Virus record (IMG/VR): IMGVR_UViG_3300047548_001872
Length of the DNA: 64,000 nt
Source: a virus
Lineage: Duplodnaviria; Heunggongvirae; Uroviricota; Caudoviricetes
Strand: one strand, 5' to 3'
Made by a program: the position numbers and the translations under genes. The notes below the pieces were generated by a model. That model saw only the letters and a program-made list of their open reading frames with translations. It was not told the DNA's origin and did not search any database. Numbering within the stretch: the first letter of the stretch is position 1; each line of letters begins with the position of its first letter. This document shows positions 41,791 through 63,879 of the stretch, one piece after another.

Positions 41791-42576
41791 TTATTTTAAA
41801 ACCATGTTCTTTTTTTCAAAATTAGTGATAAAAGCATTGATTTTATCATATCTGGATTGATTTTGTATTGTAGGCGTTCCTAAAAAAACCTCCAAAAACG
41901 CTTGATACGCTTCGATTCTTGGATAGCCAAGACCCAAATAGATTAGCAATCCATTTAAGTCAGCCTCGGTCTCATCGTTAATATCATCATTCAGATAGAA
42001 ATGACTAAACTCATGGCACAAGATTGCAAATCGCATCGGAACTGTGTACTCATCGAATTTCTTCTTGCTTACCTGAATTCTACCTGTGGTTCTCGAAATC
42101 CGAGCAGGCGTTGATGCCTCTCCTCCATTTTTGCTTGGTATGATTGGTAAGTATTCAATCAAAAACTCGTTGTTGTCGGAAGTGTATGATTTGTTTGCTT
42201 CCAAATATGGGGAATTGAAGCAAAATCGTTGCGCAAAATCGACGAAATAATAAATGGTGGGGTTTGTTATGTCAACCACATCCAATCGCTTCTGTAAAGG
42301 CGTTTTTTCGATTCCTAAAACCCTAATATTCTTCTCTTGTTCTTTGGGCAAATTACCTCTTTTTTGGTCATACACAGAAACAATAACTGAGTTAGAAGTA
42401 ATAGGCATATTTACCATAAAAGTAAACTTGTTTGAAACTGTTTTGTACCTGTCCGTAAAAACAATTTTTGGTTTTTCAGCATCAACAATTTTGATAACTA
42501 CAACCGTCGGTGTAGTCACCTCAACGGTGATTGCCAAACACATCTCTTCAAAACGAGTATTTATTCGAAAATTCAT
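41791..42576 (-). CDS. putative zinc metallopeptidase (HExxH)
   Basis: FAILCHEFSHFYL contains HEFSH. Otherwise unassigned. Confidence 0.4.
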   Translation of the reverse strand: MNFRINTRFEEMCLAITVEVTTPTVVVIKIVDAEKPKIVFTDRYKTVSNKFTFMVNMPITSNSVIVSVYDQKRGNLPKEQEKNIRVLGIEKTPLQKRLDVVDITNPTIYYFVDFAQRFCFNSPYLEANKSYTSDNNEFLIEYLPIIPSKNGGEASTPARISRTTGRIQVSKKKFDEYTVPMRFAILCHEFSHFYLNDDINDETEADLNGLLIYLGLGYPRIEAYQAFLEVFLGTPTIQNQSRYDKINAFITNFEKKNMVLK

Positions 42577-45031: not shown

Positions 45032-45035
45032 TTTT

Positions 45036-45454: not shown

Positions 45455-45495
45455 AAAAAAGGGCAAGTAGAATAAAGTCTATCTTGCCCTTTCTT
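45455..45495 (-). terminator. intrinsic terminator downstream of the candidate capsid gene
   Basis: GGGCAAG-tagaataaagtctat-CTTGCCC flanked by A6 on + (a U-run on the minus-strand transcript). Confidence 0.55.
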
Positions 45496-45531
45496 TATTA
45501 TACAATAATCGGTTTAAAGCATATTGCTTAA

Positions 45532-47226: not shown

Positions 47227-47227
47227 A

Positions 47228-47755: not shown

Positions 47756-47771
47756 TTCCTTCTTGAGTTTT

Positions 47772-48005: not shown

Positions 48006-48009
48006 AAAA

Positions 48010-48828: not shown

Positions 48829-48939
48829 ATTTTAAACGTTGAAAAGTTTATACATAAAAAAAGTAAGCCATGCCAACATTATTAATAATAAAGTCAGCAA
48901 TGGCTTATTGTTGTTGTTTTGACTATTACTAACCATTTA

Positions 48940-50010: not shown

Positions 50011-50011
50011 T

Positions 50012-50443: not shown

Positions 50444-50445
50444 AA

Positions 50446-50880
50446 CTATGGTTTTAAGTAGTTGTCAATAATTTCTTTGGTCATTTCAAATCCCCAGCTA
50501 AACGCAGCGAAGTATCCCTTAGAGTTTAATTTATCAATAGATTTTTGTTGTTCTTGTAGATGGTCGTATTCGGATACCACAACTTTGGTTTTGCCTACAG
50601 TAATAGTCTTTGTTACCTTTTGGCTTTTGAGTTCGCCATTCTTTTTAAAGGGGGAAGTTGTCTTCAGCTCAAGAAACAATCCATGATAACCCTTTTTAGG
50701 CTCAAAAATTAAAACGTCAGTACATCGAAACCCTTTTTTTTGAATTGCGGAATTTCTTCTGGCTTGACCGTTGCTTAACTTTAAGAAAGCAACCGTGTCG
50801 GATAGAAAATCCACATCGGGGTATTCGATGGAAATGTATCTTGCAATTTGTTTTTGTAATTCGTATTCAGCGTGCTTCAT
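50446..50880 (-). CDS. VRR-NUC-like PD-(D/E)xK nuclease
   Basis: ...RNSAIQKKGFRCTDVLIFEPKKGYHGLFLELKTT...SQK resembles the VRR-NUC core (G..G.PDL...ElK...Q). Confidence 0.45.
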   Translation of the reverse strand: MKHAEYELQKQIARYISIEYPDVDFLSDTVAFLKLSNGQARRNSAIQKKGFRCTDVLIFEPKKGYHGLFLELKTTSPFKKNGELKSQKVTKTITVGKTKVVVSEYDHLQEQQKSIDKLNSKGYFAAFSWGFEMTKEIIDNYLKP

Positions 50881-50898
50881 TGTTGTTGATTGTTGTTG

Positions 50899-51546
50899 TT
50901 ATATCCCGTATTTCTTAGTGAATTCAGGATTTTTGAGAATCTTGCTCCCGACTAATTTTGCGAAATCATTGTCGGAAGGGTAATGCAAACCCAAATATAC
51001 TCTACTATTGGCAATATCTTCAATAATTTCCTTACAAAATTTATAAACTTGTGGGTGTTTGTTGCCAATAACATTCAAAATAACGAATGCTTGTAATGTA
51101 TGCCCAGAAGGTAACGATGGAGAATCATCTGTGCTGCTTTTGTAAGGAAATAGCTTAAGTTTGTATGCATAAGCCAATTGATATGGTCTTGGTCTTTGAA
51201 AATGATACTTTAGTTTCGAAATCAAAGGCTTTAAATCTTTTGCTATTTCAGTACAATAGTTTTCTACATCGATATTTTCCTCCTTGAATATGCTTACGAT
51301 TGTTTGTAATAGGTTTTTATCATAAGCCTTATACCTTTTGAGATATTCCTGATTTTCTTCATCCGAAACCGCTGCAATGGAGTCTACGATTTCATTTAAT
51401 TCATCCTTGGTTAATTCGGAATCATTAGAAGGTATTGGCTCGTTCTTTAATTCCATAAATACTGAATCCAAAAAAGATTCCTTGACAATTAAATCCAAGA
51501 CCTCTTTATTGGGATTTCCGTATGCCAATGAATTTAATACATCCAT
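50899..51546 (-). CDS. PAP2-family phosphatase
   Basis: KYHFQRPRP (KxxxxxxRP), PSLPSGHT (PSGH), SRVYLGLHYPSD (SRxxxxxHxxxD). Confidence 0.65.
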   Translation of the reverse strand: MDVLNSLAYGNPNKEVLDLIVKESFLDSVFMELKNEPIPSNDSELTKDELNEIVDSIAAVSDEENQEYLKRYKAYDKNLLQTIVSIFKEENIDVENYCTEIAKDLKPLISKLKYHFQRPRPYQLAYAYKLKLFPYKSSTDDSPSLPSGHTLQAFVILNVIGNKHPQVYKFCKEIIEDIANSRVYLGLHYPSDNDFAKLVGSKILKNPEFTKKYGI

Positions 51547-51558
51547 AGTGTTGTTGAA

Positions 51559-51789
51559 TTATTTACCTGACAAACAAGCCTGCATTTTCTCTTTTTCCCA
51601 AGCTGCCCAATCGAAGTTGGCTGATACTCGCATCAACATTCTTTCTTTTGCAATTTGGTCTTTGCAAGCATTCACTTTGGCATCATCCATAGGGACGATA
51701 GTTGGCTCATTTTTTTTGTTTTTTGCTTTTAAAATCAAAGCAATGGCTACAACGCCAAGTCCAAGTAATAATAAATTTTCTGTTTTCAT
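51559..51789 (-). CDS. N-anchored small membrane protein
   Basis: TM segment LLLLGLGVVAIALIL. Confidence 0.4.
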   Translation of the reverse strand: MKTENLLLLGLGVVAIALILKAKNKKNEPTIVPMDDAKVNACKDQIAKERMLMRVSANFDWAAWEKEKMQACLSGK

Positions 51790-51801
51790 TTTTGATTCAG
51801 A

Positions 51802-52155
51802 TTAGGTTGAAGGATTGGTCAATATTTTCTCAACCATTCCCTTCTTAATTAGTTCAATTCTTTCATAGCTTACTTTCCCATTTTTCAGGGTAGTTCCAAA
51901 CCTTACACCCCAATCGCCACCGATTAAGAATTCAGAACTTCCATAAATTTGCAATAATTTACCGAAAGGTAATTTTAAGGTTGCAAATCCGTTATCATAG
52001 TCAACACTAACGATTTTCACGTTAGGTTGCCAAATGTTATTTATAAAAAAGGCATATCCTCCAGCAATAACAGTAATTGCTCCTACAACACTGGCGATTT
52101 TAATTATCGTTTGTGTTTGTTTGCTGAACTCAACTTTTGCTTTATCAAACAACAT
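51802..52155 (-). CDS. membrane protein
   Basis: TM segment IIKIASVVGAITVIAGGYAFF. Confidence 0.4.
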   Translation of the reverse strand: MLFDKAKVEFSKQTQTIIKIASVVGAITVIAGGYAFFINNIWQPNVKIVSVDYDNGFATLKLPFGKLLQIYGSSEFLIGGDWGVRFGTTLKNGKVSYERIELIKKGMVEKILTNPST

Positions 52156-52166
52156 AGGGATAAATT

Positions 52167-52505
52167 TTATTGGCTTACGGTGTATTTTTTACCAAGTGCC
52201 TTTTTTACATTGTACTTTACTTCCTCGACATCATCTACTAAGTTTTCAAACTCATCCTTAGACGCAGCCTCTTCAAGTTTTTGAATAGCTTTTCTATGGT
52301 ACATAATGCTGTACCATGCGCTTGCGAATATTAAGCCAAATGTAACTATTGTCAAGATAGAATAAGGCTTGTCGTTTGCCATTTTTTCAATGACATTTGT
52401 ATCACCACCACCTTCAAAACTTGGCGTAGCTTGAGCCACTGGAGGTGTACTTTGTGGAGTTGGAGTTGGCGTTTCTATTACGGGTGCTTGAACTGGTGCT
52501 TCCAT
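52167..52505 (-). CDS. Pro-rich membrane protein
   Basis: TM segment ILTIVTFGLIFASAWYSIMY. Confidence 0.4.
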   Translation of the reverse strand: MEAPVQAPVIETPTPTPQSTPPVAQATPSFEGGGDTNVIEKMANDKPYSILTIVTFGLIFASAWYSIMYHRKAIQKLEEAASKDEFENLVDDVEEVKYNVKKALGKKYTVSQ

Positions 52506-52506
52506 T

Positions 52507-52929
52507 TTAAATTTTGTTTTTTTTGATTGATAATGCTATTAAAGCCAAACCTAACAATCCTCCCATTGAGGCATATGCTAATTTATGCTTTTGCATGTGG
52601 GCTACAAACTTTTTTTTAGTTTCATTATTTGACAAAACAGGTTTAGGCTTTCCTTGTGGTCTAATCACAACCTCTTCTAAAGTTTCAATATCTTCCTTCA
52701 ATGTTATTGTTTTACCATCCAAGTCTTTGGCAAGTATGGTTTGTGGTTTGTAGCCAACATAGGAAATTTTCAACTCTGATTCGGGTACTATAATTTCATC
52801 GTTGACCTGATAATTACCCTCATAGTCAGACGTAAATACTTTTTGGACTTTACCATTGTTTATAATCGACAAGTTTGCCAATGGCAAACCTTCTCCTTTT
52901 TCGTCGATTATTTTAGCTGATAACTTCAT
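52507..52929 (-). CDS. CarboxypepD_reg-like domain protein with C-terminal TM
   Basis: LANLSIINNGKVQKVFTSDYEGNYQV. TM segment MGGLLGLALIALSI. Confidence 0.4.
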   Translation of the reverse strand: MKLSAKIIDEKGEGLPLANLSIINNGKVQKVFTSDYEGNYQVNDEIIVPESELKISYVGYKPQTILAKDLDGKTITLKEDIETLEEVVIRPQGKPKPVLSNNETKKKFVAHMQKHKLAYASMGGLLGLALIALSIKKNKI

Positions 52930-52931
52930 AA

Positions 52932-53087
52932 TTATTTGTAGCCATTTAGTCTTTTAATGGTGTAGTAATTAACAATAGCCCCTAAAGTAAAAGACACAAT
53001 CCCTACTACCACAAAAATGGTAGAAAGATGAGTATGAAATTTACCATTTTTATTGTTCTCGTTATTTATGTTGTTTTGCTCTTGCAT
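52932..53087 (-). CDS. micro membrane protein (51 aa)
   Basis: ...LSTIFVVVGIVSFTLGAIVNYY... Confidence 0.3.
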   Translation of the reverse strand: MQEQNNINNENNKNGKFHTHLSTIFVVVGIVSFTLGAIVNYYTIKRLNGYK

Positions 53088-53089
53088 TT

Positions 53090-53734
53090 TTATTTTTTTA
53101 AAACGAATTTTCTATATGCTAAATAACCAGCCACAATTAAAGCTACTCCCAAAATCAATTGATTCTTGTAGGTTTTCACGACTAATGAAAAACTGCCGTC
53201 ATTTAACCACTCTTTTGGCAACTTTGATAGCATTACACTCTTCACCTCCCACACACGCAATTTTCCATCTTTCACTTTTCTAAAAGCTGGGTTTTGGTCG
53301 TATATTTTTTGAGCAGTCAATCCACCTCCTTGAATTACCCAATCATCGGGTTTCCCGATTGCCAATGGAAAGAAAATTGCGAAATACGTGTCAATGTAGC
53401 TATTAATCTTTCCAGTGTATTGCTTCAGATATTCATAAACCAAATCTAATTGCTCTACTGCGGTCATTTTGATAATTTGGTCAAGAGTATATCTTTTTCC
53501 TCCAATGGTTTTGTATTTCAATCCTTTTGCATCGGGGCAAAACTGAATCAATCCTACACAGCCAATTTGGTTTTTTTCAGACGGAGAAAAAGACCTTGCA
53601 GATTCAAAGTACATAATTGCCATCAACCAGTTAGGGTCAATTTTCAACTTGTCGCTTATCTCTCTAACTTTGGCTACAAAATCAGCACGATAGCTTTGCG
53701 GAACTTTTGATTCGTAGATTAACTCCATCACCAT
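53090..53734 (-). CDS. SLT-domain lytic transglycosylase with C-terminal TM anchor
   Basis: YFESARSFSPSEKNQIGCVGLIQF (E-S ... GLMQ-like). C-terminal TM segment LILGVALIVAGYLAY. Confidence 0.55.
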   Translation of the reverse strand: MVMELIYESKVPQSYRADFVAKVREISDKLKIDPNWLMAIMYFESARSFSPSEKNQIGCVGLIQFCPDAKGLKYKTIGGKRYTLDQIIKMTAVEQLDLVYEYLKQYTGKINSYIDTYFAIFFPLAIGKPDDWVIQGGGLTAQKIYDQNPAFRKVKDGKLRVWEVKSVMLSKLPKEWLNDGSFSLVVKTYKNQLILGVALIVAGYLAYRKFVLKK

Positions 53735-54021
53735 AAAATTTTATCGGCATACCAACCGTTTGAACCCACTTTATGTCGGTCACTATTGTGGCGTTGCTTG
53801 TATAGCTTACGCCTTTTATTAGCATGTCCTTTTTCATAATAGCCCTTTTTTTCTTTTTCCAAGTAAGTTGGATAGTCATTCATACCTCTTGCCCCTATAG
53901 ATGCTACTTTTTTCCCATTCTTGAAAACATCAATCTTTTTCAATGGATTAGTTGAGGGTTTTATTTCAACCCCCAACTTTTTTGCTTTATCGTAACTATA
54001 TGGCAATATTTTGTAAGGCAT
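53728..54021 (-). CDS. basic hypothetical protein
   Basis: 97 aa, rich in K/R/H. Confidence 0.4.
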   Translation of the reverse strand: MPYKILPYSYDKAKKLGVEIKPSTNPLKKIDVFKNGKKVASIGARGMNDYPTYLEKEKKGYYEKGHANKRRKLYKQRHNSDRHKVGSNGWYADKILW

Positions 54022-54024
54022 AAA

Positions 54025-54270
54025 TTACGATGCTGAAAACTGTTTTACAGTTTGTCTACACGTATCTCTGCGTCGACATCTTCCGTCTTGCGCAAAATAA
54101 CCAACTCCATCAGAGCCTTCACAAACACGACAAGGGGAAGAAGTTGTTTTAGTTCCATCAACCGAATAAAACCCGTCTGAATTTTTACGAGGCTTTTTGA
54201 ACATAAAATATCCAACGGCAGCAACTGCTGCTAATCCCCCTACCAATAATAATGTTTTTTTAGTATTCAT
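54025..54270 (-). CDS. N-anchored Cys-rich small membrane protein
   Basis: TM segment LLLVGGLAAVAAVGYFMF. SSPCRVCEG...GRCRRRDTCRQT. Confidence 0.4.
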   Translation of the reverse strand: MNTKKTLLLVGGLAAVAAVGYFMFKKPRKNSDGFYSVDGTKTTSSPCRVCEGSDGVGYFAQDGRCRRRDTCRQTVKQFSAS

Positions 54271-54333
54271 TTTTTTTAAAAATTAAGATTCAACTTTTTT
54301 GAATCATTATGCCGTGATTGTTGTTGATTGAGT

Positions 54334-55035
54334 TTATTTTCTGACTTCCTTATACCACAAGTCTAAGAATCCATTAACGCCAAGCATTTTTAATAAATAT
54401 GCTTTTGGTTCTTTGCCAAGACCTTTTCGGTTTAAAAGCTGTTCTGTGGTAGTCAATCCTCGCATTTTGGCTCTCGCTCCATAAAAGCCTGAGTTATATG
54501 CGACCATAGTTTTGTTTAGTGGTGCTACCCCTTCTTGCGCAAACGCTTCAAGCATCCACCTAACTATTGCACAGCCTAATGCAATATTGAATTCTTCATT
54601 TCGGAGTGCTTTTTCAATACTATTAGTGTCGGAGGATGTCATTTTTCTATTTCTATCCCACGCTTTCCAATTTGGAGTATTTTTGCTTAAAATAGCCTTA
54701 AACGAAGTCGAAAGAGGCACGTCTACAAAAACATCCCATTTAGTCACTACTTCATACACAGTTTCAGCAGTGGCTTGCATAAGACCGATAGCCCCAAAAC
54801 TGTTTCTACCTACATTTTTCCCACCGCTTTCTGTGCAAATAAAAGAATTGATAACATAGTTTGGGATGTCAAAATCTTCTCCCCATTTGTCCATTAAGGA
54901 TGAGTACTTTTTTGATGTAGCAATCAACATTCCCGTATTTGCACGAATTGTTTCTGGCTTACTATAGCTAAAACTTCCTTGGACAAAAGTCCTATTTACG
55001 TCTGGGGCTTTAATATTTATTTTGGAATATGCCAT
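54334..55035 (-). CDS. SLT-domain lytic transglycosylase
   Basis: CTESGGKNVGRNSFGAIGLMQAT (E-S ... GLMQ). Confidence 0.6.
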   Translation of the reverse strand: MAYSKINIKAPDVNRTFVQGSFSYSKPETIRANTGMLIATSKKYSSLMDKWGEDFDIPNYVINSFICTESGGKNVGRNSFGAIGLMQATAETVYEVVTKWDVFVDVPLSTSFKAILSKNTPNWKAWDRNRKMTSSDTNSIEKALRNEEFNIALGCAIVRWMLEAFAQEGVAPLNKTMVAYNSGFYGARAKMRGLTTTEQLLNRKGLGKEPKAYLLKMLGVNGFLDLWYKEVRK

Positions 55036-55039
55036 GATT

Positions 55040-55207
55040 TTAATCTTCTAAAGGTTCTTCAATTGGAGGAGTATCATATTCAATAAATTCAACAGTCCAT
55101 CCTCTATCACGAACAACGTTTCGTGTCAGAAATTTTGTGAGAGCATAGCCCCCGATTGCGAGAGCTATAACGCCTACTCCTATTAAAATTTTTTTTGCCC
55201 TTGTCAT
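55040..55207 (-). CDS. micro membrane protein (55 aa)
   Basis: MTRAKKILIGVGVIALAIGGYALTKF... Confidence 0.3.
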   Translation of the reverse strand: MTRAKKILIGVGVIALAIGGYALTKFLTRNVVRDRGWTVEFIEYDTPPIEEPLED

Positions 55208-55209
55208 TT

Positions 55210-55701
55210 TTATTTTTTTCTAAAATAGTTAATAGCTCCGAGAGAACCTACTAACAATAATGTACCGAAAACAATACCAAATGTTCCAATTCCAGACCCT
55301 TTTTTTGCCTTTGCTTCAGCCTCCTCTTTAGCCTTTGCTTCAGCCTCCTCTTTAGCCTTTGCTTCAGCCTCCTGTTTGGCTTTAGCATCAGCCTCCTCTT
55401 TAGCTTTTGCTTCAGCCTCCTTTTTGGACTTTGCATCAGCCTCCTCTTTGGCTTTAGCATCAGCTTTCTCTTTAGCTTCTACTAATTCTTCAAGTTCTTC
55501 GACCAAATCTTCTTGGAAGTCTTGAATGTAGTTCTTGATTTCGTTAATTTCTGCTTCAGAGTCAGGCGATGGGTTTTCTTTGTTTTCTTCAATTGCGCTT
55601 GCAAGTCTTTGATTCAAATCGTTTAAAGCGTCAAGTTTTTTTGCAACGCTTCTTGGTACTTTATTGTTTAGTTTGGTTAATAACAATTTAATTGACTCCA
55701 T
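55210..55701 (-). CDS. coiled-coil protein with EAEAKAKE octapeptide repeats and C-terminal TM
   Basis: About 9 repeats. C-terminal TM segment FGIVFGTLLLVGSLGAI. Confidence 0.5.
   Translation of the reverse strand: MESIKLLLTKLNNKVPRSVAKKLDALNDLNQRLASAIEENKENPSPDSEAEINEIKNYIQDFQEDLVEELEELVEAKEKADAKAKEEADAKSKKEAEAKAKEEADAKAKQEAEAKAKEEAEAKAKEEAEAKAKKGSGIGTFGIVFGTLLLVGSLGAINYFRKK
55297..55475 (-). repeat. 24-nt tandem coding repeat
   Basis: gcctcctctttagcctttgcttca-like units, about 7 copies. Confidence 0.8.
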
Positions 55702-55801: not shown

Positions 55802-58800
55802 TTATTTTTTAAGTTCAGCAAAAGCACGTTTTAAAGCTGATTGCCATGACTCTCCATCTTTGCGAATTTCTTTCGCCAAAGCTGTAGCTTGCTTGAATTT
55901 ATTGTTATTTTCTTGTTTTGGCAAACTTCCGCCATTCATAAAGCTCGTCTCATCTAAATCAGATAACTTTAATCGCATTGGTGGTGCGCCAGAGGTCATT
56001 TTATTCAAATAAACAGCCATGATGTAATTATCATCGTCATGGCTTAAAATATGAACGGATTTACCTTCCTTGGTTTTTACTTGTTTGCCCTTCAAGTTAA
56101 CTTTAACTTTCTTGGAGGTTTCTTCTTTTTTGCCCATTAAACCACCAAAAAACTTTTTCTCAGCTTGTTGAGCTTTAACTTTTCCAGCTACTCTATCGCC
56201 AACTTGTTTTGCTTCTTCTTTGGAGTAGAATTTACCAAATTCTTCTTGATATTCGCTTTTAACGGGTTTGCCAACATATTGCTTGGCAACTTTTAACGAC
56301 AACTTTTCAAAGTTTGAAATTTTCCCTCCATACTTGAATTCACCTGTTTCCATAAAGGCTTCAAATATTTCTACTCCTTTATCATGTTGCTCGGAAACAA
56401 CTTTTTCGGTAGTTCTCTTTGGAGTCGTAACAATTAGAGTATAGTATGGGTCTTTATGTGCAGTGTACTTCCACATTTTTACGCCTTTTGTTCCCGTCTC
56501 TTCAACTCTACCTGCTTGGACAGAAGTAATTAAATTGCCTTTAAAGTTTTTGTGGGTTATAAGCCTCCAATCATATCCGTTGTGGTCAGAATACTCGGTT
56601 TCAGCCATCCAGTTGCCTCTTGCATCTTTTCGCAATCGAGTTGTTGGCTTGTTGCTGCTGCTTGCACCTTTAGATGAAGATGAATCTTCAATTGGTTTTG
56701 CATCTTTCTTAACCCAATATCCATTAGCAGGATTTATTTTATTACCGTTTTTCAATTCAACCTCAACAACATCACGTTTTGGAACGTAAAAAGCCTTTTT
56801 AGACAATTCACCGCCATTCATTAGTATGTTTGCTCCATTGAATACATCTGAACCTTTGTAGGTAACTTCTTTTCCATTACGTTTAACCGTAACGGTCTTG
56901 ATGTCAGCTTTTAGGATGTATTTTTTGGCTTTTTTTGAACCTTCTACCATAGAATCAAATTCTCCATCAAGAAGTCTTTTGTATATATCTTTGTAATAAG
57001 CCACTCCTTCTTTGTCTTTGCTTTTAGCTCTCATGTCAATAAGCCTTTTTGCACTTTCTTTCATCTCATCAAGAACTTCTTGAGTAAATTTGCCTGTATC
57101 GCCTTTTGCTCCTAATTTTATTAGGTTATATCCATTTCTCAATCCATCTCTGTCCTGAGTAAAAATATAGGTATTCCCTGATGTATCTAATCGAATATCA
57201 CCATAATCCCCATTTACTGGGTTGCCATAATTATTCATTACGGTGGCATATCTTTTCTCATCTTTTTGATAAACCACATCCCCTACGTTGAATTTTATAT
57301 TTTCATCGGGAGTGAAAGAGTTTTTGGCAAAATATAAATACATCGTGTTAGCTACACCTGAACCCTCCATTTTTGTGACAAAATAAAAAGCCTCCATAAT
57401 GTCCAGTCCGTCCCATTCCGTTAATCTTGCAATGGCTCTTCCATAATCTTCTGCAAGTTTACTTGGAATGAAGTATTCAGACTTGTACGCCTCATCTTTA
57501 TCATCGGTGTCTGCAAGAATTTTTGCTAATTTTAATGCTTCGTCATGAAAATTGGCATCGGTCAAAGCCTCAATTAAGGCTTGATACATAGTTAAATCAT
57601 ACTCTTTTTTGCCCAGATTATCAATTGTGATTCCTTTTTCTTTGGCTATTTTTTGAGCTTGCAAATTCAAACTTCCATTGACTTTACCGCCAAATAAGTA
57701 TGAATTTTTCGTGCTTCCACCATAAGCAAAATCCTCAACCAAATAAGGTATTTGAACAGGTCGACCCATCATGTCGGTAACTCTTGACATTTGAATTTTA
57801 GTCATAGGTATAAATGGGTAATTGCTACCCCAAGCACCTTGTTTAAGGTTTGTTAAACCAACAATTCCATTTTTTTCATGCACATACCAAAGCTCATCAT
57901 CATAAATAACAGGGTCGCCTAAGTACATTTTTCGCTCGATGCTTCCTCCGTTTTCAAACTTCGTGTTAGTCCATCCAAACAATTCAGAATTAGCACGGAA
58001 ATAACGATTACCTCCGACTGATGTATAGTCGATTTCCCCGACGATATTATCCATATTGTCAAACACATTGAAAAAAGCACTAATAACTTGAGAATCGGAT
58101 GTCTGAATCATTGGGGCAATATAATATTCTAAGCCATCCATTTCAAAAGACATATTATCTCTTAGTACAACATCGTTTTTGCCTTTTAGAAAGCCTTTGA
58201 TTTTTTCAAAAGCCATTTCGGAAAACTCTTTTTTGAATTCCTTTTCGGGAACTTCTTCGATTTCAACCATGCCTCTTTCGTTTTCCTCTTCCTCTTCTTT
58301 TAGGTCTTCAATCATTTCTTGTTTACCATCAAGGTAATGGACAACATCCGATAAATCAGCCGTTGCTCTACCCATTTTGGCAATAACCCAAGCAGGAATT
58401 CGAACTGGTTTTTTCAAAATATCCTCCAACTCATCCGAGTGGTGGTCAATTTGCTCATTTTGATTTATAAGCATTTCTTTTGCCTCATCTGAAAGGCTAC
58501 CTCCGTTGGCAAAAAACTCCCCAGCACGTAAGCCCTGAAGCACCTCTTCGGCATTGATAGGCGTGAAAGAGGTATCTCTCTCAAAACCTAATCCAAATCG
58601 ACCTCGATAGTTCTCAAGCTGGCTTCTACTCACCGAACCAACTTCAGCACCATAGCCCAAGTCAACAATTGCCCAAAGGTAATCAGGGTCGTCTGGGTCT
58701 GAATTAATAATAAACCATGTTCCAACACCAGTAGGGTTGAATATTTTAGCAACGACCACTTGTTTAGAGAGGTCGCTGCCTAATGGATATTGACTAAATA

Positions 58801-58834
58801 GCTTTTTATCTATTGCGGATGTAAATAATTTCAT
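55802..58834 (-). CDS. giant protein (1010 aa), partly paralogous to 58847..61405; recurring F/Y-x-N/D-GG motifs
   Basis: FANGGSL, FENGGSI, LMNGGEL, FMNGGSL. The block KRNGKEVTYKGSDVFNGANILMNGGEL...ANGYWVKKDAKP is shared with the 852-aa neighbour. Confidence 0.6.
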   Translation of the reverse strand: MKLFTSAIDKKLFSQYPLGSDLSKQVVVAKIFNPTGVGTWFIINSDPDDPDYLWAIVDLGYGAEVGSVSRSQLENYRGRFGLGFERDTSFTPINAEEVLQGLRAGEFFANGGSLSDEAKEMLINQNEQIDHHSDELEDILKKPVRIPAWVIAKMGRATADLSDVVHYLDGKQEMIEDLKEEEEENERGMVEIEEVPEKEFKKEFSEMAFEKIKGFLKGKNDVVLRDNMSFEMDGLEYYIAPMIQTSDSQVISAFFNVFDNMDNIVGEIDYTSVGGNRYFRANSELFGWTNTKFENGGSIERKMYLGDPVIYDDELWYVHEKNGIVGLTNLKQGAWGSNYPFIPMTKIQMSRVTDMMGRPVQIPYLVEDFAYGGSTKNSYLFGGKVNGSLNLQAQKIAKEKGITIDNLGKKEYDLTMYQALIEALTDANFHDEALKLAKILADTDDKDEAYKSEYFIPSKLAEDYGRAIARLTEWDGLDIMEAFYFVTKMEGSGVANTMYLYFAKNSFTPDENIKFNVGDVVYQKDEKRYATVMNNYGNPVNGDYGDIRLDTSGNTYIFTQDRDGLRNGYNLIKLGAKGDTGKFTQEVLDEMKESAKRLIDMRAKSKDKEGVAYYKDIYKRLLDGEFDSMVEGSKKAKKYILKADIKTVTVKRNGKEVTYKGSDVFNGANILMNGGELSKKAFYVPKRDVVEVELKNGNKINPANGYWVKKDAKPIEDSSSSKGASSSNKPTTRLRKDARGNWMAETEYSDHNGYDWRLITHKNFKGNLITSVQAGRVEETGTKGVKMWKYTAHKDPYYTLIVTTPKRTTEKVVSEQHDKGVEIFEAFMETGEFKYGGKISNFEKLSLKVAKQYVGKPVKSEYQEEFGKFYSKEEAKQVGDRVAGKVKAQQAEKKFFGGLMGKKEETSKKVKVNLKGKQVKTKEGKSVHILSHDDDNYIMAVYLNKMTSGAPPMRLKLSDLDETSFMNGGSLPKQENNNKFKQATALAKEIRKDGESWQSALKRAFAELKK

Positions 58835-58846
58835 ATTGTAAAATTT

Positions 58847-61405
58847 TTAATCGTTTTTGTGAGTTTTTCCGTTTGGTTTTGGAAGGTTCAAATGCTCATA
58901 AGCATTCGGATTTACCGATAACAATTTATCAGGGTTTCCAGCGGAAAATCTTTTAATCGCACGGATTCTTCCTTCAGACAAATCAATATCTTCTTCAAGC
59001 CCATCCTCTAATGGCTTTCTACCGATGTAATCGGAGGATAAATCCATAGGAATATCTACGGGTTCTACTTCTTGGTTAAAGATTGGGGAGCGAAATCTTC
59101 TTTCGTTATCCATTTCCATGAATCCATCGTTTTTTTCGTACAAATTACCTCCATCGGCAAAAGACTTTTTCGTAATACTCATTGGTACGGGTTTTGCATC
59201 TTTCTTTACCCAATATCCATTTGCAGGCGTTACTAAGTGTCCATTTTTAAGCGTTACGTACACAATTTCTCTTTTAGGAATGTAATTTGCCTTGGAAGAA
59301 ATCTTACCCCCATCATCAAAAGTATTTACCCCATTAAAAACATCCGTGCCTTTGTAAGAAACCTCTTTGCCATTTCTCATAACATTTACATAAGCAATAT
59401 CATCATGGTCAATATACTTTCTTGGCTTGCTTGCATACATTTTGTCAGATTTTATAGTTTTCATAACCTCTGACTTGGTTTTTTTGTATCCAGATGTAGA
59501 TTTATCGCCAACAATCAAAATCACGAATTCTTCTTTATCAATAGTTTTTGTTCCTAATGCTTGCATCAATGCTAAAACTTCACGCTCGCTAAGATTTTCT
59601 TCTTTTGTAAATTCTTTAACGGCAGCAACATTTGTTCCTGTTAAAGATGCAATTTGTTCAATAGCAAGTTGTTCTAACGATGGGGTGCTTTTTAACTTGC
59701 CTCCACTCTTGAAAATACCTGCACTTGCACCTTCTCCTAAGTAATAATTTACATAGGGTTGAGATGCAGCATCGATAATAGCTTGGTTTTGCATCATCAC
59801 GCCACCATCCATAAACAACTCTCCTGCGGACATTGCTCCTGTTTCACCAACAAGACCATCATAGTGAGTGCCTGTGAATCCATTAAGCATAGAAGGGTCT
59901 CCAGTTCCAAATTTACCTCCCATATGACCAGCAAGGTCGGGCATTACGTTTCCGCCAAGTTCAAAACTCTCGCTGTAGTGCAACTCTTTGTAGCCTTTTT
60001 TAATAAGGTCTTGCACAAAGTCGTTAAGCATTTCTTTGTTTTTAAAAGTAGCGATGTCATAAAAATTACTACCATCCTTGTGTTTTTGAACACCATCATG
60101 ATAGCTAACTAAGTATTTGACTTTTCCAACGTTATATTGAATAGTGTATCTTTTTTTACCTACATTACCTCCATCAGCATAAACCTGATTTTGGAAATTA
60201 CCGAAAGTTGGGTCGGTCATGAATTCACCTCCATCAGCATATTTCGTTTCCAACACTTTATTTACTGAATAAGCAGAGCCATAATACCCATTTCCAACAT
60301 CTTTAGCATTCATGTTTACTAAATTTTGGAAATTAGAAGCTGCGTCTTTTGGAGTGAAATGCAAAATATACTCATCACCTTTGTCTTCAATAAAGAAATC
60401 ACCTGATGGTTTATATAGTTTAGCCTTAATTCTATCTTTGGTGAGCTTCACTTTTACGCTTTTGCCTAAGCCACCACCCGATTCCATTTTTAATGACTCC
60501 AAGTGCTGATTCCAATAAGAGAAAAACCGTTCTACCTCTTTTTTGTCACCATCGTTGATTGCTTTTTCTAAGTTCACCAAATCCTCTTTCAAGAAATTAT
60601 ACATTCTTTCATTAGTTTTTGTCAGAAGTGATTTTAAATGACCTGAACTTCCAAGCCAATAAGAGAAAAACCTGTTGACTACTTCAGCATTTCCGCTGTT
60701 TGTAGCTTCACGCAATTGTTCTAAGTCATCTTTCAAAAAATTGTACATTCTTTCATTAGAAACTGAACCGCCATTCTCCAACAAAGGCATGTCTTTTGGG
60801 TATGCAGGAGACAATCTATCGGCATGACCGTCACGGCTTTCCCAATACTTTCTTCCAATCTTGTTTTCGAATGTTCCATATTGGTTTGATGTAAAACCTT
60901 GTTTTGTAACCACTCGCTTGCCTCTTGGCTTTGCAGTGCGAACAGAATCTCTAAGAATATCAGAGTCCTTGAATCCTTCTAACTCTTTACGGGTACGAAC
61001 AATTTTTAATAGCTTCTGCAATTCCGTATCGACTGTTTTTTTGGCTTGGGCTTTATTATTTTTCATAATATCGCTTGCCCGTTTAACCGCATCATTCCAA
61101 GACTCGTCAGCACGTCTAATCTCTTTTGCTAAAGACATGGCGGTTGGTTTTGATGGAGCTGATTTTTTGGGTTTTGCTTTAGTTTTGGATGTGGTTTTTT
61201 TAGTCGTGATTGGCTTTAATGCTTCAGGGTTTTTCTCCTCCAATGCAGCAATAATCTTGTCCAGAGCTAAATCGATTTTCTCTAAAACCTCTTTATCCTT
61301 TGTCTTGAAGTCATTTGTTTTTTGTGAAATGGCTTTCAAAATGCCAACTTGTTTTTCATCAAGTTTGCTTTGGTCGATTCTTTGGAATTTTTGTTTAGTG
61401 TTCAT
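58847..61405 (-). CDS. giant protein (852 aa), paralogous blocks with 55802..58834; internal ~45-aa tandem duplication
   Basis: LENGGSV, ADGGEF, ADGGNV, FMDGGVM, FDDGGKI, FADGGNL. NERMYNFLK(D/E)DL...FFSYW is duplicated in tandem. Confidence 0.6.
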   Translation of the reverse strand: MNTKQKFQRIDQSKLDEKQVGILKAISQKTNDFKTKDKEVLEKIDLALDKIIAALEEKNPEALKPITTKKTTSKTKAKPKKSAPSKPTAMSLAKEIRRADESWNDAVKRASDIMKNNKAQAKKTVDTELQKLLKIVRTRKELEGFKDSDILRDSVRTAKPRGKRVVTKQGFTSNQYGTFENKIGRKYWESRDGHADRLSPAYPKDMPLLENGGSVSNERMYNFLKDDLEQLREATNSGNAEVVNRFFSYWLGSSGHLKSLLTKTNERMYNFLKEDLVNLEKAINDGDKKEVERFFSYWNQHLESLKMESGGGLGKSVKVKLTKDRIKAKLYKPSGDFFIEDKGDEYILHFTPKDAASNFQNLVNMNAKDVGNGYYGSAYSVNKVLETKYADGGEFMTDPTFGNFQNQVYADGGNVGKKRYTIQYNVGKVKYLVSYHDGVQKHKDGSNFYDIATFKNKEMLNDFVQDLIKKGYKELHYSESFELGGNVMPDLAGHMGGKFGTGDPSMLNGFTGTHYDGLVGETGAMSAGELFMDGGVMMQNQAIIDAASQPYVNYYLGEGASAGIFKSGGKLKSTPSLEQLAIEQIASLTGTNVAAVKEFTKEENLSEREVLALMQALGTKTIDKEEFVILIVGDKSTSGYKKTKSEVMKTIKSDKMYASKPRKYIDHDDIAYVNVMRNGKEVSYKGTDVFNGVNTFDDGGKISSKANYIPKREIVYVTLKNGHLVTPANGYWVKKDAKPVPMSITKKSFADGGNLYEKNDGFMEMDNERRFRSPIFNQEVEPVDIPMDLSSDYIGRKPLEDGLEEDIDLSEGRIRAIKRFSAGNPDKLLSVNPNAYEHLNLPKPNGKTHKND

Positions 61406-61860: not shown

Positions 61861-62198
61861 ACAATGACCAAATTACCGTTTGCATCTAAATCAATCTCAA
61901 TTAAATTTGATTCAAACTCAAGACGTTGATTAATATTTTCGAATTGCTCCAAACAATCCTTTTTTTCTCCATTGGGCTTAATGCAAAGTATTTTGTAAAT
62001 AGACTCAATACCATTATCTGGAAGCAATCCATACGAAGTGTACTTAACATAAATGTCGTTTGGAGTCAAGGCACTATAAAACAACTTCAAATCCTCTCTT
62101 TTTTTCTTGTTAGCAAAAGCAAAACCACTCAAGTAATCTTGCATAGCCTCGATTTGTTCGTTTGTTATTTTGGCAATGTTTTCCATTTTTTTAAACAA
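61857..62198 (-). CDS. hypothetical protein
   Basis: 113 aa. Confidence 0.45.
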   Translation of the reverse strand: MFKKMENIAKITNEQIEAMQDYLSGFAFANKKKREDLKLFYSALTPNDIYVKYTSYGLLPDNGIESIYKILCIKPNGEKKDCLEQFENINQRLEFESNLIEIDLDANGNLVIV

Positions 62199-63879
62199 TA
62201 TTTAGTGCTTCGTTCAAAAGTAAAACTTTTTCCTGAAATTTTTTGTCTTTTTCATTTATTTGTTCCTGACTATCAGCATAAGAGCCTCCGCTAACAACTT
62301 GGTACTTTTCGGTTAAAATAGACAAAATGTACTTTCTAATCATATCTTTAATTTCAACTTTAGTGGATGGTCTGCTGAAAATTTTGTTGAACGTTGAATC
62401 TTCGGTAATTCTTTTATAAAGACTACGAACAAAATCGTTCATCTCAATCATTTCAATAGCCAAAAAGTCCATATAGTAATAGAAACTATAAAACACCTGA
62501 TGCAAGTACGAAAGGATGTTATCATAAGTGATGTTTGCATCGGCAATTTTAGTGTCTACTGTAGATAATGCAAATTGGAAATTTTCATTAACAACTTTTG
62601 TGTTCACAAACGGCTGGTCTTTATTTAATTTCACCCAATTTTTATACCGCTGTAACATTGAGTTCATATAATTTCTATTCCAATAAAAAACATCTGAAAA
62701 AGATGCATCATATTTACCTGAAGGGGAAGCTTGAATTCCATCGTTAGTATTGTAGACTTTGAAAAACCCAAAGAATTGTTCGGCATATTCAGAAGTTGAC
62801 AACAAATAGTATATTTTGTCAAAAGCATCGCTACTTGATTCATTATAATCTTTGACTGGTATAGAAATTGTTGTCATCACAGATTTGTCAGAACCAATTC
62901 TTAACGCTGATATTCGAGAATCGATTCCAAATTCCTCTAAAGTTGCAGCAATTAAAAACGCAGGCAACAAAGCCAAACCTCTTGAGGCATCATTTGTGTA
63001 TTTTTTTTTCAAAAAGTTTATAGGCATAAAAATGTCTACATTTTTTACTGAATCATCTTTTTTATCATAAATTAAGTATGACTTTTTGTTGTTAGAGGCA
63101 TACTTTAATTTTGCATCGCCTCTACCATTAAAAACTTTGTTTTGATTCACGATATCATAAGTAAGCACAATGCCATCCTGATTAGCTTTTAAAAAGCACT
63201 CATCTTTAAATGCATTATGCACTTTTGTAGCTCCTCTCTGTCTTCTTTCGCAATAATAGTCTTTTCCCTTGTTAGAATAGATAAAAAAAGTATTTACTCC
63301 TACAACATTTTTTCTGACATCATCAGGCATCACAACTCCATTTTCTAAACTTTGAAAAAAATACGGGTTTTTTAGAACGCCTTTTTCGATATCTTTTTTA
63401 AGCTCTTCCGAATAAAATTCAATAGGTCTGTACAACCCTAAACTTGCCAATCCGAAATCAAAAACACCATTTGTATCTTGTGTTACGATAATCCTATCAT
63501 TCTTATACAATCCCCCTAAATTGATTAGCGTTTTGATGTTTTCCACAACAATCTTGCTGATTTTTTTAATCTTATCAAACGATTTGTTTGGTTTGTTAAT
63601 TTCGGAAATGAAGGTGCTGAAATCCTTATATTTTGGGTCTGAAACAAAGTACAAGGCTTGTCTTTCAAAGGTTTGTTGATTAGGCTTATTTCTAACTTGC
63701 TCAATAAAACCAAAAGCATCCTCCAAGTTCTTGTACTGAGAGAATATAAATCCATTTTTGCTTGCACCTGTGGTAGAAGCAGAATTTGAACTTATAGAAG
63801 CAGCAGCCCATCTATTAACATAATTAATAAAGGGCTTCCGACCTGCCTGTTGTATTGCCTCAAATAAGTTACTTACCAT
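62191..63879 (-). CDS. large hypothetical protein (562 aa)
   Basis: No recognisable motif. Portal or capsid roles cannot be assigned by eye. Confidence 0.55.
   Translation of the reverse strand: MVSNLFEAIQQAGRKPFINYVNRWAAASISSNSASTTGASKNGFIFSQYKNLEDAFGFIEQVRNKPNQQTFERQALYFVSDPKYKDFSTFISEINKPNKSFDKIKKISKIVVENIKTLINLGGLYKNDRIIVTQDTNGVFDFGLASLGLYRPIEFYSEELKKDIEKGVLKNPYFFQSLENGVVMPDDVRKNVVGVNTFFIYSNKGKDYYCERRQRGATKVHNAFKDECFLKANQDGIVLTYDIVNQNKVFNGRGDAKLKYASNNKKSYLIYDKKDDSVKNVDIFMPINFLKKKYTNDASRGLALLPAFLIAATLEEFGIDSRISALRIGSDKSVMTTISIPVKDYNESSSDAFDKIYYLLSTSEYAEQFFGFFKVYNTNDGIQASPSGKYDASFSDVFYWNRNYMNSMLQRYKNWVKLNKDQPFVNTKVVNENFQFALSTVDTKIADANITYDNILSYLHQVFYSFYYYMDFLAIEMIEMNDFVRSLYKRITEDSTFNKIFSRPSTKVEIKDMIRKYILSILTEKYQVVSGGSYADSQEQINEKDKKFQEKVLLLNEALNIV

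What the first reader, a model, noticed from the sequence alone, without database searches (positions are those of the whole stretch)
55802..61405. Two giant partly paralogous proteins with recurrent [FY]x[DN]GG[NESK][LVI] motifs and shared modules
The 1010-aa and 852-aa proteins share a ~75-aa block (KRNGKEVTYKGSDVFNG...NGYWVKKDAKP) and an LAKEIR..ESW..A.KRA module. They carry 5-8 copies each of a short GG-containing motif. The 852-aa protein has an internal tandem ~45-aa duplication. This is unlike tape-measure proteins. They could be polyvalent internal or ejection proteins, or membrane-remodelling scaffolds.
Basis: seen in the sequence. Interest (0 to 1): 0.6.

Follow-up and report, generated by a model that had tools for sequence, protein, structure and literature searches.

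The report
Mosaic phage effector proteins, GG-joined modules
Two neighbouring giant genes of an uncultured Bacteroidota phage encode strings of small interchangeable protein modules joined by one conserved seven-residue Gly-Gly junction; this fits the known "polyvalent" anti-defence proteins, but the junction is not reported in the literature I could search and may be a protease cutting site.

Summary
ORF A (55802-58834, minus strand, 1010 aa) and ORF B (58847-61405, minus strand, 852 aa) share a 90-aa block (59% identity, E=1e-28) and a short LAKEIR helical hairpin. B contains a 48-aa-period tandem duplication.

Both carry a [FYLMW]xxGG motif 16 times, against 2.65 expected.

The motif is a feature of the whole family. 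In 240 relatives its consensus is [FY]-A-[DK]-G-G-x-[IVLM], about one per 108 aa. It marks the module boundaries: 44% of internal BLAST alignment ends fall within 4 residues after the GG, against 5.5% at random. AlphaFold confidence dips at the motifs.

The 2247 inter-motif segments form about 320 module families, shuffled between genomes.

Recognisable modules are DUF2958 in A, and ArdA, RelA/SpoT and LPD11 in relatives. This is the domain set of polyvalent proteins (Iyer et al. 2017). Nothing matches tape-measure or polymerase families.

The gene pair sits in a conserved late-looking operon upstream of two SLT transglycosylases.

My best reading is that these are virion-delivered, hypervariable anti-defence cargo whose junction motif is a processing site. 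A conserved HExxH protein is the candidate protease. Cleavage and packaging are both inferred, not shown.

Verdict: a new variant of a known kind, of moderate interest.

The parts
58847..61405 (-). ORF B, 852 aa. A B-type polyvalent protein of 10 modules separated by 9 junction motifs.
   Evidence: ORF. 255 homologs, many fused to ArdA. AlphaFold model.
55802..58834 (-). ORF A, 1010 aa. An A-type polyvalent protein of about 9 modules, with 7 canonical and 1 degenerate (FFGG) junction motifs.
   Evidence: ORF. 283 homologs, nearly all starting with DUF2958. AlphaFold model.
58559..58762 (-). DUF2958 domain (A residues 25-92). This first module ends at FANGG, residues 108-112.
   Evidence: Pfam PF11171, E=1.8e-12, 48 bits against a cut-off of 21.
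58325..58474 (-). Conserved core of A module 2 (residues 121-170). Residues N124 Q125 N126 H131 H132 E135 E137 P147 A148 W149 H166 G170 are nearly invariant. Function unknown.
   Evidence: Alignment A1. AlphaFold confidence is low here.
56669..56938 (-). Copy in A (residues 633-722) of the block shared with B. It consists of a small beta unit, the junction motif LMNGG, then a second small beta module.
   Evidence: BLASTP E=1e-28. Strands and a pLDDT dip at 669-672.
59165..59434 (-). Copy in B (residues 658-747) of the shared block, spanning the junction motif FDDGG.
55823..55888 (-). LAKEIR helical hairpin at the C-terminus of A (residues 983-1004).
   Evidence: C-terminal in 86/120 A-type relatives. 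Helices 978-990 and 997-1009.
61076..61141 (-). LAKEIR helical hairpin in the basic N-terminal module of B (residues 89-110).
   Evidence: At about residue 88 in 91/120 B-type relatives. A93 K94 I96 E101 R109 A110 are invariant.
60512..60760 (-). Tandem duplication in B (residues 216-250 and 264-298, period 48 aa). It is modelled as two helical hairpins.
   Evidence: Score 122 against shuffles 23.5 +/- 4.9. pLDDT about 90.
59813..59956 (-). Glycine-rich segment of B (residues 484-531). It is nearly invariant across relatives yet predicted to be unstructured. Function unexplained.
   Evidence: Alignment A2. pLDDT 26-30.
58499..58513 (-). Junction motif FANGG (A108-112).
57944..57958 (-). Junction motif FENGG (A293-297). 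Homology to about 75-100 relatives stops here.
57686..57730 (-). Double junction FAYGG and YLFGG (A369-373 and A379-383), 10 aa apart.
   Evidence: pLDDT below 50 over 362-398.
56810..56824 (-). Junction motif LMNGG (A671-675).
56324..56338 (-). Junction motif FKYGG (A833-837).
   Evidence: pLDDT below 50 over 834-840.
55928..55942 (-). Junction motif FMNGG (A965-969).
   Evidence: pLDDT below 50 over 968-977.
60767..60781 (-). Junction motif LENGG (B209-213). It ends the N-terminal module conserved in about 119 relatives.
60473..60487 (-). Junction motif MESGG (B307-311).
60167..60241 (-). Two YADGG junction motifs (B389-393 and B409-413), 20 aa apart.
59699..59965 (-). Junction motifs FELGG (B481-485), FMDGG (B531-535) and FKSGG (B565-569).
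59306..59320 (-). Junction motif FDDGG (B696-700).
59147..59161 (-). Junction motif FADGG (B749-753).
41791..42576 (-). Candidate processing protease (inferred only). A 261-aa core protein of the lineage with an invariant HExxH...E...D.
   Evidence: H188 E189 H192 E202 D206 are invariant in 40 members at 28-53% identity. 712 representatives at 50% clustering. Weak Pfam PhageMetallopep and SprT-like hits in 8/40 members.
53090..55035 (-). Downstream context conserved in relatives: SLT transglycosylases (54334-55035 and 53090-53734), with small membrane proteins between and around them.

Best explanation
A and B are a conserved, adjacent pair of mosaic 'polyvalent' effector proteins. They belong to an abundant, uncultured phage lineage with genomes of about 100-130 kb, whose hosts are probably Bacteroidota.

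Each protein is a string of small, independently folding modules, about 10-290 aa long in A and B.
- Only the first module is fixed: DUF2958 in A-type proteins, and a basic LAKEIR-containing module in B-type proteins.
- The remaining modules come from a pool of more than 300 families, reshuffled from genome to genome.
- The identifiable families are anti-restriction or host-takeover domains: DUF2958, ArdA, RelA/SpoT and LPD11.

Modules are joined by a specific seven-residue junction, [FYM]-A-[DKN]-G-G-x-[IVLM]. It often occurs in tandem, 6, 10 or 20 aa apart.

Shown: the mosaic architecture, the junction motif and its position at module boundaries, the domain repertoire, and the conserved synteny.

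Inferred:
(i) The proteins are made late, packaged into the virion and delivered with the DNA. This is the standard logic for polyvalent proteins.
(ii) The junction is a recognition site at which a protease releases the modules. This would be a polyprotein strategy.
(iii) The lineage's conserved HExxH zincin-like protein (41791-42576) is the most plausible protease.
For: The motif is far above chance.
- 16 copies against 2.65 expected in A+B, reached by 0 of 5000 shuffles.
- 1399 against 208 expected in 120 homologs.
- Positions not used to select the motif are constrained: Ala 52% at +1, aliphatic residues at +6.
- GG codons vary, so selection acts on the protein.

The motif lies at module boundaries.
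- 44% of internal HSP ends fall 0-4 aa after the GG, against 5.5% at random. 37% of HSP starts fall on the motif, against 5.4%.
- Homolog coverage of A and B drops at FENGG (A293-297), LENGG (B209-213) and FADGG (B749-753).
- AlphaFold pLDDT dips coincide with the motifs in the modelled parts of both proteins.

It is a linear motif rather than part of a fold: spacings of 6-20 aa are common.

It is strictly internal: none of 240 proteins ends at a motif.

Shuffling is extensive.
- There are 320 module clusters, 29 of them shared by A- and B-type proteins, at variable positions.
- In relative L031 the flanking 562-aa protein is 57% identical over its full length. Its A- and B-type proteins (713 and 495 aa) share only one or two modules with the window's.

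Domain content: DUF2958; ArdA, RelA_SpoT and LPD11 in relatives. In P0171 the ArdA domain begins 5 residues after a junction.

The polyvalent-protein concept, including proposed proteolytic release, is from Iyer et al. 2017, PMC5512222.

Synteny with bpMoxR upstream and SLT transglycosylases downstream is conserved.

Candidate protease.
Against: - No cleavage product, virion proteome or expression timing is available.
- No capsid, portal or terminase gene was recognised in the 64-kb window or in the 10 kb upstream in a relative. Assigning the operon to a virion or late module is therefore contextual only.
- No Gly-Gly-specific protease family was found as a conserved gene (no clan CE, no C39).
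- The HExxH protein lies 13 kb away. It has only weak family matches (best E=0.005), and nothing links it specifically to the motif.
- The shared A/B block runs straight through a junction motif, so junctions are not always recombination breakpoints.
- Both AlphaFold models are of low overall confidence (mean pLDDT 54.6 and 58.7).
Confidence: 0.55

Rival explanations
1. The architecture is the same, but the junction is never cut. It would be a conserved hinge in a 'beads on a string' design. The aromatic and aliphatic anchors cap the neighbouring modules. The Gly-Gly lets the chain be compacted in the particle and threaded through a narrow channel module by module, with the proteins acting full-length.
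For: - The motifs sit in low-pLDDT linkers, and the aromatic residue ends a predicted strand of the preceding module, for example strand 288-293 before ENGG.
- No dedicated Gly-Gly protease was found.
- Some polyvalent proteins are known to be transferred as full-length polypeptides (PMC5512222).
Against: - Ordinary linkers do not conserve a specific seven-residue pattern (Ala 52% at +1, aliphatic at +6) across more than 2000 instances.
- Tandem copies 6-20 aa apart add nothing to a hinge.
- Modules as short as 10-39 aa cannot be folded beads.
Confidence: 0.27
2. The motif is a short linear binding motif repeated for avidity. It would dock the cargo onto a partner, such as the upstream bpMoxR AAA+ ATPase with its 562-aa partner, the capsid interior or the portal. 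Its purpose would be loading or retention, not cleavage.
For: - The bpMoxR and 530-562-aa genes lie immediately upstream in every relative examined.
- The multiplicity and tandem arrangement of the motif fit avidity.
- The motif is confined to the giant proteins rather than spread over other proteins of the genome.
Against: - The motif is never terminal and always lies between modules (0/240). That is not required of a docking tag.
- Motif number scales with module number rather than being fixed.
- There is no evidence for any binding partner.
Confidence: 0.12
3. The proteins are structural: a tape measure, an internal core ruler or a membrane-remodelling scaffold.
For: - They are large and sit in a long co-directional operon with lytic transglycosylases and many small membrane proteins.
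Against: - Among homologs, length ranges from 473 to 1751 aa. The proteins in the same syntenic slots of related loci measure 495-2267 aa (B-type) and 713-1659 aa (A-type).
- Module content is not conserved apart from the end modules.
- The predicted modules are mixed alpha/beta, not one long helix.
- Neither protein has a transmembrane segment.
- There is no match to tape-measure families.
Confidence: 0.04
4. The motif is a compositional or chance feature, or a DNA-level recombination signal with no role in the protein.
For: - Both proteins are fairly rich in Gly, Lys and Asn.
Against: - Shuffles keeping composition never reach the observed count.
- GG codons differ from site to site (GGA GGT, GGC GGT, GGT GGC, GGG GGT).
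- Flanking residues are conserved at the amino-acid level.
Confidence: 0.02

Closest known systems
Polyvalent proteins of phages and conjugative elements (Iyer, Burroughs, Anand, de Souza & Aravind 2017, PMC5512222)
   Same: - Very large multidomain proteins of mobile elements that combine unrelated anti-defence or host-takeover domains.
- ArdA, RelA/SpoT and LPD11 are all domains listed for that class.
- Modules also occur as solo proteins.
- Extensive mosaicism.
- Delivery with the DNA and proteolytic release of domains were proposed for the class.
   Different: - That paper does not mention DUF2958, a glycine junction or a linker motif.
- No in-cis peptidase domain is detectable here.
- Most modules (over 300 clusters) have no family assignment.
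- The proteins come as a fixed syntenic pair with fixed end modules.
Gly-Gly-X-processed viral polyproteins: African swine fever virus pp220/pp62 and adenovirus precursor proteins
   Same: - Large precursors of dsDNA viruses whose mature products are delimited by Gly-Gly sites.
- Small spacer peptides are released. This is established knowledge; pp220/pp62 are described as polyproteins in PMC10308890.
   Different: - Those sites are cut by clan CE cysteine proteases, and none was found here.
- The hydrophobic anchor lies at a different distance from the GG.
- Cleavage here is hypothetical.
- The products there are structural core proteins, not variable effectors.
Head-internal proteins processed by prohead proteases: T4 internal proteins and Alt, phiKZ-like inner-body proteins (own knowledge)
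   Same: - Packaged cargo proteins cut at short recurrent motifs, sometimes at several sites in one protein, and injected with the DNA.
   Different: - The motifs there are L/I-x-E or S/A/G-x-E, cut by a recognisable prohead protease.
- No such protease and no HK97-type head genes were recognised here.
Ejection or internal core proteins of podoviruses (T7 gp14-16, P22 gp7/20/16) and N4 virion RNA polymerase (own knowledge)
   Same: - Large proteins encoded next to a lytic transglycosylase function and delivered into the cell.
   Different: - Those proteins are conserved in length and sequence within a lineage and form a defined channel or enzyme.
- A and B are hypervariable mosaics.
Tape measure proteins
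   Same: - Size, and proximity to cell-wall-degrading functions.
   Different: - No sequence match, not predominantly helical, and several-fold length variation between close relatives.

Membership tests
Polyvalent proteins (Iyer et al. 2017) | Many (2-15 or more) unrelated domains in one polypeptide | tested here: met
   A has about 9 modules and B has 10. The modules fall in different sequence clusters and are modelled as separate folded units.
Polyvalent proteins (Iyer et al. 2017) | Encoded by a phage or conjugative element | tested here: met
   - Relatives lie on IMG/VR viral contigs of about 100 kb.
- The window carries phage-type genes: a tail-fibre-like protein, SLT transglycosylases, a TIGR02594 lysin, RecT and homing endonucleases.
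Polyvalent proteins (Iyer et al. 2017) | Contains hallmark conflict domains (ArdA, RelA/SpoT, LPDs, peptidases, methylases and others) | tested here: inconclusive
   - In the window's own proteins only DUF2958 is recognisable.
- ArdA, RelA_SpoT and LPD11 occur in homologs that share modules and synteny.
Polyvalent proteins (Iyer et al. 2017) | Genomic association with virion or packaging genes, implying delivery into the host | tested here: inconclusive
   - The genes are co-directional with SLT transglycosylases, fibre-like proteins and a small P-loop ATPase.
- No capsid, portal or terminase gene was recognised.
DUF2958 (PF11171) | Score above Pfam's gathering threshold | tested here: met
   48 bits against a cut-off of 21, E=1.8e-12, A residues 25-92.
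Gly-Gly-X-processed viral polyproteins | Gly-Gly sites located at the boundaries of the mature products | tested here: met
   The motif coincides with homology-block ends and with pLDDT dips. This establishes position only, not cleavage.
Gly-Gly-X-processed viral polyproteins | A virus-encoded Gly-Gly-specific (clan CE or similar) protease | tested here: not met
   - Pfam, PHROG and NCBIfam scans of the window ORFs found no clan CE or C39 peptidase.
- A PPPDE/LRAT-like ORF (27806-28264) looks like an LRAT-type enzyme and is absent from relatives.
Gly-Gly-X-processed viral polyproteins | Demonstrated cleavage products | not testable with these tools
   This needs proteomics or biochemistry.
Tape measure proteins | Sequence or profile match to tape-measure families; long helical protein; length conserved within a lineage | tested here: not met
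   - No match.
- Mixed alpha/beta modules.
- Lengths of 473-1751 aa among homologs and 495-2267 aa in the same syntenic slots of related loci.
Zincin metallopeptidases (for the candidate protease 41791-42576) | Invariant HExxH plus a third metal ligand; match to a peptidase family | tested here: inconclusive
   - H188 E189 H192 E202 D206 are invariant in 40 diverse members.
- Family matches are only weak: PhageMetallopep in 6/40 members (best E=0.005) and SprT-like in 2/40.
- No PDB match.

The most novel reading that the evidence does not exclude
A bacteriophage lineage uses a true polyprotein strategy. Two hypervariable precursor proteins are packaged and then cut at a lineage-specific [FY]-A-[DK]-G-G-x-[IVLM] junction by a phage-encoded zincin. 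This would release a combinatorial cocktail of a dozen or more small anti-defence domains and peptides into each new host. The junction would then act as a universal 'plug' that lets any of more than 300 effector modules be swapped in by recombination without re-evolving processing.
Probability: 0.3. Interest if true: 0.8.

Novelty: new variant of a known kind. Interest (0 to 1): 0.55.

Why it matters
Polyvalent proteins are thought to carry phage counter-defence functions into the host, but how their many domains are organised, exchanged and released is largely unknown.

This lineage offers a simple, testable rule. A single conserved junction peptide separates every module. That makes module boundaries readable directly from sequence. 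It defines more than 300 candidate anti-defence modules, almost all without any family assignment. It also points to a specific experiment, cleavage at the junction.

If the junction is a processing site, it would be a bacterial-virus counterpart of the Gly-Gly polyprotein processing known in large eukaryotic DNA viruses. It could also serve as a ready-made cleavable linker for protein engineering.

Tried and rejected
**Searches that found nothing**
- Cultured relatives: megablast of the region and tblastn of A, B and the 562-aa neighbour against 50,697 phage records. Only DUF2958-sized matches to unrelated phages came back.
- Family assignment of modules: PHROGs gave none. NCBIfam gave only noise. 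PDB profile searches gave none. Foldseek against PDB gave nothing below E=0.05.
- Foldseek against BFVD matched only about 110-aa uncharacterised phage proteins. The afdb50 library was unavailable.
- Literature searches for the motif strings, DUF2958 and bpMoxR found nothing relevant.

**Ideas about the motif that were rejected**
- DNA-level recombination signal at the junction: codons vary.
- Lys/Asp isopeptide pairing between K-type and D-type motifs: the window's 16 motifs include no K-type.
- Motif as a C-terminal tag on each module: 0/240 proteins end at a motif.
- Motif as a general maturation site of virion proteins: it is essentially absent from other ORFs of the window and of related loci.

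**Protease candidates that were rejected**
- The NlpC/P60 (TIGR02594) protein at 47228-47755 occupies the slot that holds a Peptidase_M15_3 lysin in relatives. It is therefore an endolysin.
- The PPPDE-like ORF at 27806-28264 has the LRAT-type NCEHF motif plus a C-terminal anchor, and it is not found in related viral contigs.

**Unresolved**
- Virion type. A small FtsK/HerA-like ATPase and many tail-anchored membrane proteins hint at a membrane-containing particle. No capsid protein could be identified.
- The promoter and terminator scan was uninformative.
Full report
**1. The observation**

The two ORFs lie exactly where stated, both on the minus strand. B is upstream (58847-61405, 852 aa) and A follows after a 12-nt gap (55802-58834, 1010 aa).

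- BLASTP of A against B gives a 90-aa block (A633-722 / B658-747, 59% identity, E=1e-28). It also gives a 22-aa LAKEIR...ESW..A.KRA match (A983-1004 / B89-110, E=1e-4).
- The tandem duplication in B is real. Residues 216-250 and 264-298 share 22/35 identities. The alignment score is 122, against 23.5 +/- 4.9 for shuffles. AlphaFold models the two copies as two confident helical hairpins.
- The GG motif is far above chance. [FYLMW]xxGG occurs 16 times in A+B against 2.65 expected, and none of 5000 shuffles reached that.
- A position-specific scan of all six reading frames of the window puts 14 of 17 hits inside these two ORFs.

**2. What the motif is**

The motif is a property of a whole protein family, not of these two genes.

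- A has 283 database homologs and B has 255.
- In the 120 best homologs of A the motif occurs 1399 times against 208 expected. The consensus is [YFM]-A-[DK]-G-G-x-[IVLM].
- Over all 240 retrieved proteins there is one motif per 108 aa.
- Positions not used to find the motif are strongly constrained: Ala 52% at +1 and an aliphatic residue at +6, about 1.5 bits each.
- The Gly codons differ from site to site, so selection acts on the peptide, not on the DNA.

The motif marks module boundaries.

- In an all-against-all BLASTP of the 240 proteins, 44% of internal alignment ends fall 0-4 residues after the second Gly (5.5% at random). 37% of alignment starts fall on the motif (5.4% at random).
- In A and B, the number of homologs covering each position drops sharply at FENGG (A293-297), LENGG (B209-213) and FADGG (B749-753).
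- The AlphaFold models have low overall confidence (mean pLDDT 54.6 and 58.7). They still contain well-modelled small units, and pLDDT falls below 50 between them. In A the dips 295-315, 362-398, 669-672, 834-840, 887-910 and 968-977 each coincide with a motif. B behaves the same way.

The motif is a linear peptide, and it is strictly internal.

- Motifs are often only 6, 10 or 20 residues apart. Recurrent spacers include FMNNVYADGG and YFDGTIPKVSTYMSTYAKGG. It therefore cannot be part of a fold.
- None of the 240 proteins ends at a motif.

**3. Architecture and evolution**

- Cutting the 240 proteins at the motif gives 2247 segments of at least 25 aa. They fall into 320 clusters, 151 of them singletons.
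- 29 clusters occur in both A-type and B-type proteins, and most clusters occur at variable positions along the chain.
- Only the first module is fixed: DUF2958 in A-type proteins and a basic 213-aa module in B-type proteins.
- The LAKEIR hairpin is a second fixed element. It sits 23 aa from the C-terminus in 86/120 A-types and near residue 88 in 91/120 B-types.
- In the related contig L031 the flanking 562-aa protein is 57% identical over its whole length. Its B-type protein is only 495 aa and its A-type only 713 aa, and each shares just one or two modules with the window's proteins.
- Elsewhere the B-type protein reaches 2267 aa.

This several-fold length variation between conserved flanks, together with the lack of any profile match, excludes a tape measure or other ruler.

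**4. What the modules are**

- In the window only DUF2958 is recognisable (A25-92, E=1.8e-12).
- Relatives carry ArdA (anti-restriction DNA mimic) in many B-type proteins. Some A-type proteins carry RelA/SpoT or LPD11.
- In P0171 the ArdA domain begins five residues after a junction (FMAGG-SMETPRIYVADL).
- One module of A resembles stand-alone ~110-aa proteins of other phages (Foldseek against BFVD, E=3.9e-4, TM 0.72).
- This domain set, the solo occurrence of modules and the mosaicism match the 'polyvalent proteins' of Iyer et al. 2017 (PMC5512222). Those authors also proposed delivery with the DNA and proteolytic release of domains.
- That paper mentions neither DUF2958 nor any glycine junction. 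Full-text searches for the motif strings found nothing relevant.
- Everything else is unassigned. PHROGs, NCBIfam, PDB profile searches and Foldseek against PDB gave no significant match.

**5. Context**

The gene order is conserved in relatives:
- bpMoxR-type AAA+ ATPase
- a 524-562-aa protein
- one to two further genes of 91-679 aa
- the B-type gene
- the A-type gene
- a coiled-coil membrane protein
- one or two SLT transglycosylases
- a CarboxypepD_reg-like protein
- a PAP2 phosphatase

Further points:
- The window's minus-strand block from 27 to 64 kb is a single co-directional array. It includes many small tail-anchored membrane proteins, a TIGR02594 lysin, fibre-like proteins and a small P-loop ATPase.
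- Relatives lie on IMG/VR contigs of about 100 kb and on a 132-kb contig binned with a Sediminibacterium MAG, which points to Bacteroidota hosts.
- No cultured phage is related.
- No capsid, portal or terminase gene was recognised in the window or in 10 kb upstream in a relative. The particle type is unresolved, and the 'virion module' assignment is an inference.

**6. How it most likely works**

Shown: these are mosaic polyvalent proteins with a conserved junction peptide.

Inferred:
- The proteins are produced with the late genes, packaged, and delivered into the next host, where the modules counter restriction and other defences.
- I consider proteolytic release at the junction the most likely role of the motif, at about 0.4 on its own. 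Four points favour it. The sequence is too specific for a passive linker. The motif is strictly internal. It often occurs in tandem with peptide-sized spacers. And some modules, such as the 39-aa basic repeats in P0171, are too short to be folded beads.
- The best candidate protease is the 261-aa protein at 41791-42576.
  - It is a core gene of the lineage: 1693 homologs, and 712 representatives at 50% identity.
  - H188 E189 H192 E202 D206 are invariant across members only 28-53% identical.
  - Some members give weak Pfam matches to PhageMetallopep and SprT-like.
  - Nothing links it specifically to the motif.

Rivals are an uncleaved hinge for compaction and threading, and a repeated docking motif for the bpMoxR system or the particle.

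**7. Verdict**

It belongs to a known kind (polyvalent proteins) but adds an organising principle not described in the literature I could search: a universal junction motif delimiting more than 300 exchangeable modules. It also yields a testable polyprotein hypothesis. I rate it a new variant of a known kind, with interest 0.55.

Noticed in passing
window 27806-28264 (-): A 152-aa ORF with an H-box, an exact NCEHF motif and a C-terminal transmembrane anchor. Pfam gives PPPDE/Peptidase_C97 at E=3e-5 (below its cut-off) and LRAT at E=0.008. It looks like a PLAAT/LRAT-type phospholipid-modifying enzyme in a phage. It was not found in related IMG/VR contigs.
   Followed up: partly
window 36464-55701 (-): A run of more than 15 small proteins with a single C-terminal (or N-terminal) transmembrane helix ending in basic residues. 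With them are a PAP2 lipid phosphatase (50899-51546), a LEA_2 protein (37278-37838) and a 272-aa P-loop ATPase with weak FtsK/HerA-like hits (48010-48828). An SPFH/Band-7 protein was also hit among the window's ORFs, but its position was not determined. No capsid, portal or terminase gene was recognised. A membrane-containing virion is possible but unproven.
   Followed up: partly
window 41791-42576 (-): A 261-aa protein of nearly fixed length, 60-70% identical across more than 100 database clusters (1693 homologs). It has an invariant HExxH-(9)-E-x-x-x-D and no Pfam family of its own. It appears to be an uncharacterised, abundant phage zincin-like family.
   Followed up: yes
window 30043-33617 (-): A cluster suggesting a sulfation pathway: a sulfotransferase (32760-33617, Sulfotransfer_3 E=7e-20), an APS kinase (32247-32756, E=1e-14), a cytidylyltransferase-like / weak ATP-sulfurylase protein (31477-31989) and a possible glycosyltransferase (30043-30912). 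It lies next to fibre-like proteins (33983-36456).
   Followed up: no
window 59813-59956 (-), B residues 484-531: A glycine-rich stretch (GH.GG..G.GNP..L.G.SGT.Y.GLVGETGAMS.GE.FM.GG) that is nearly invariant across B-type relatives yet predicted to be unstructured (pLDDT below 30). Unexplained.
   Followed up: partly
window 58325-58474 (-), A residues 121-170: A nearly invariant N-Q-N...H-H-x-x-E-x-E...P-A-W...H...G pattern in the module that follows DUF2958. It may be a metal-binding or catalytic site. AlphaFold confidence is low and no family matches.
   Followed up: no
window 53728-54021 (-): A 97-aa ORF with a sub-threshold match (E=2e-5, 25 bits against a cut-off of 27.4) to DUF5754. From memory, this Pfam family comes from large eukaryotic DNA viruses.
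   Followed up: no
window 62191-63879 (-) and beyond the window end (L001 318-1667): A bpMoxR-type AAA+ ATPase (AAA_5) followed by a 524-562-aa protein without any family. The pair lies directly upstream of the giant-protein pair in every relative examined. It may be a chaperone or loader for the cargo.
   Followed up: partly
L005 9447-9995; window 4402-5256 (+): Homing endonucleases: an HNH/NUMOD4 gene inserted exactly between the B-type and A-type genes in one relative, and a GIY-YIG endonuclease in the window's plus-strand block.
   Followed up: no
P0171 residues 450-530 (locus L029 10001-12403): Tandem 39-aa, strongly basic mini-modules (S[IV]TNERKHVNH.EDYEVRY.KPRP.RKGYKG.R.F.KGG), each bounded by junction motifs. 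This is the largest module cluster: 213 copies in 92 proteins. They are too short to fold and may act as released peptides or nucleic-acid binders.
   Followed up: partly
L031 4425-8822; L029 57-3869: A third giant ORF (1465 aa; in L029 more than 1270 aa with DUF5661) lies upstream of bpMoxR in relatives. It carries only 1-2 junction motifs. Whether the window's own genome has it, beyond the right end of the window, was not checked.
   Followed up: no
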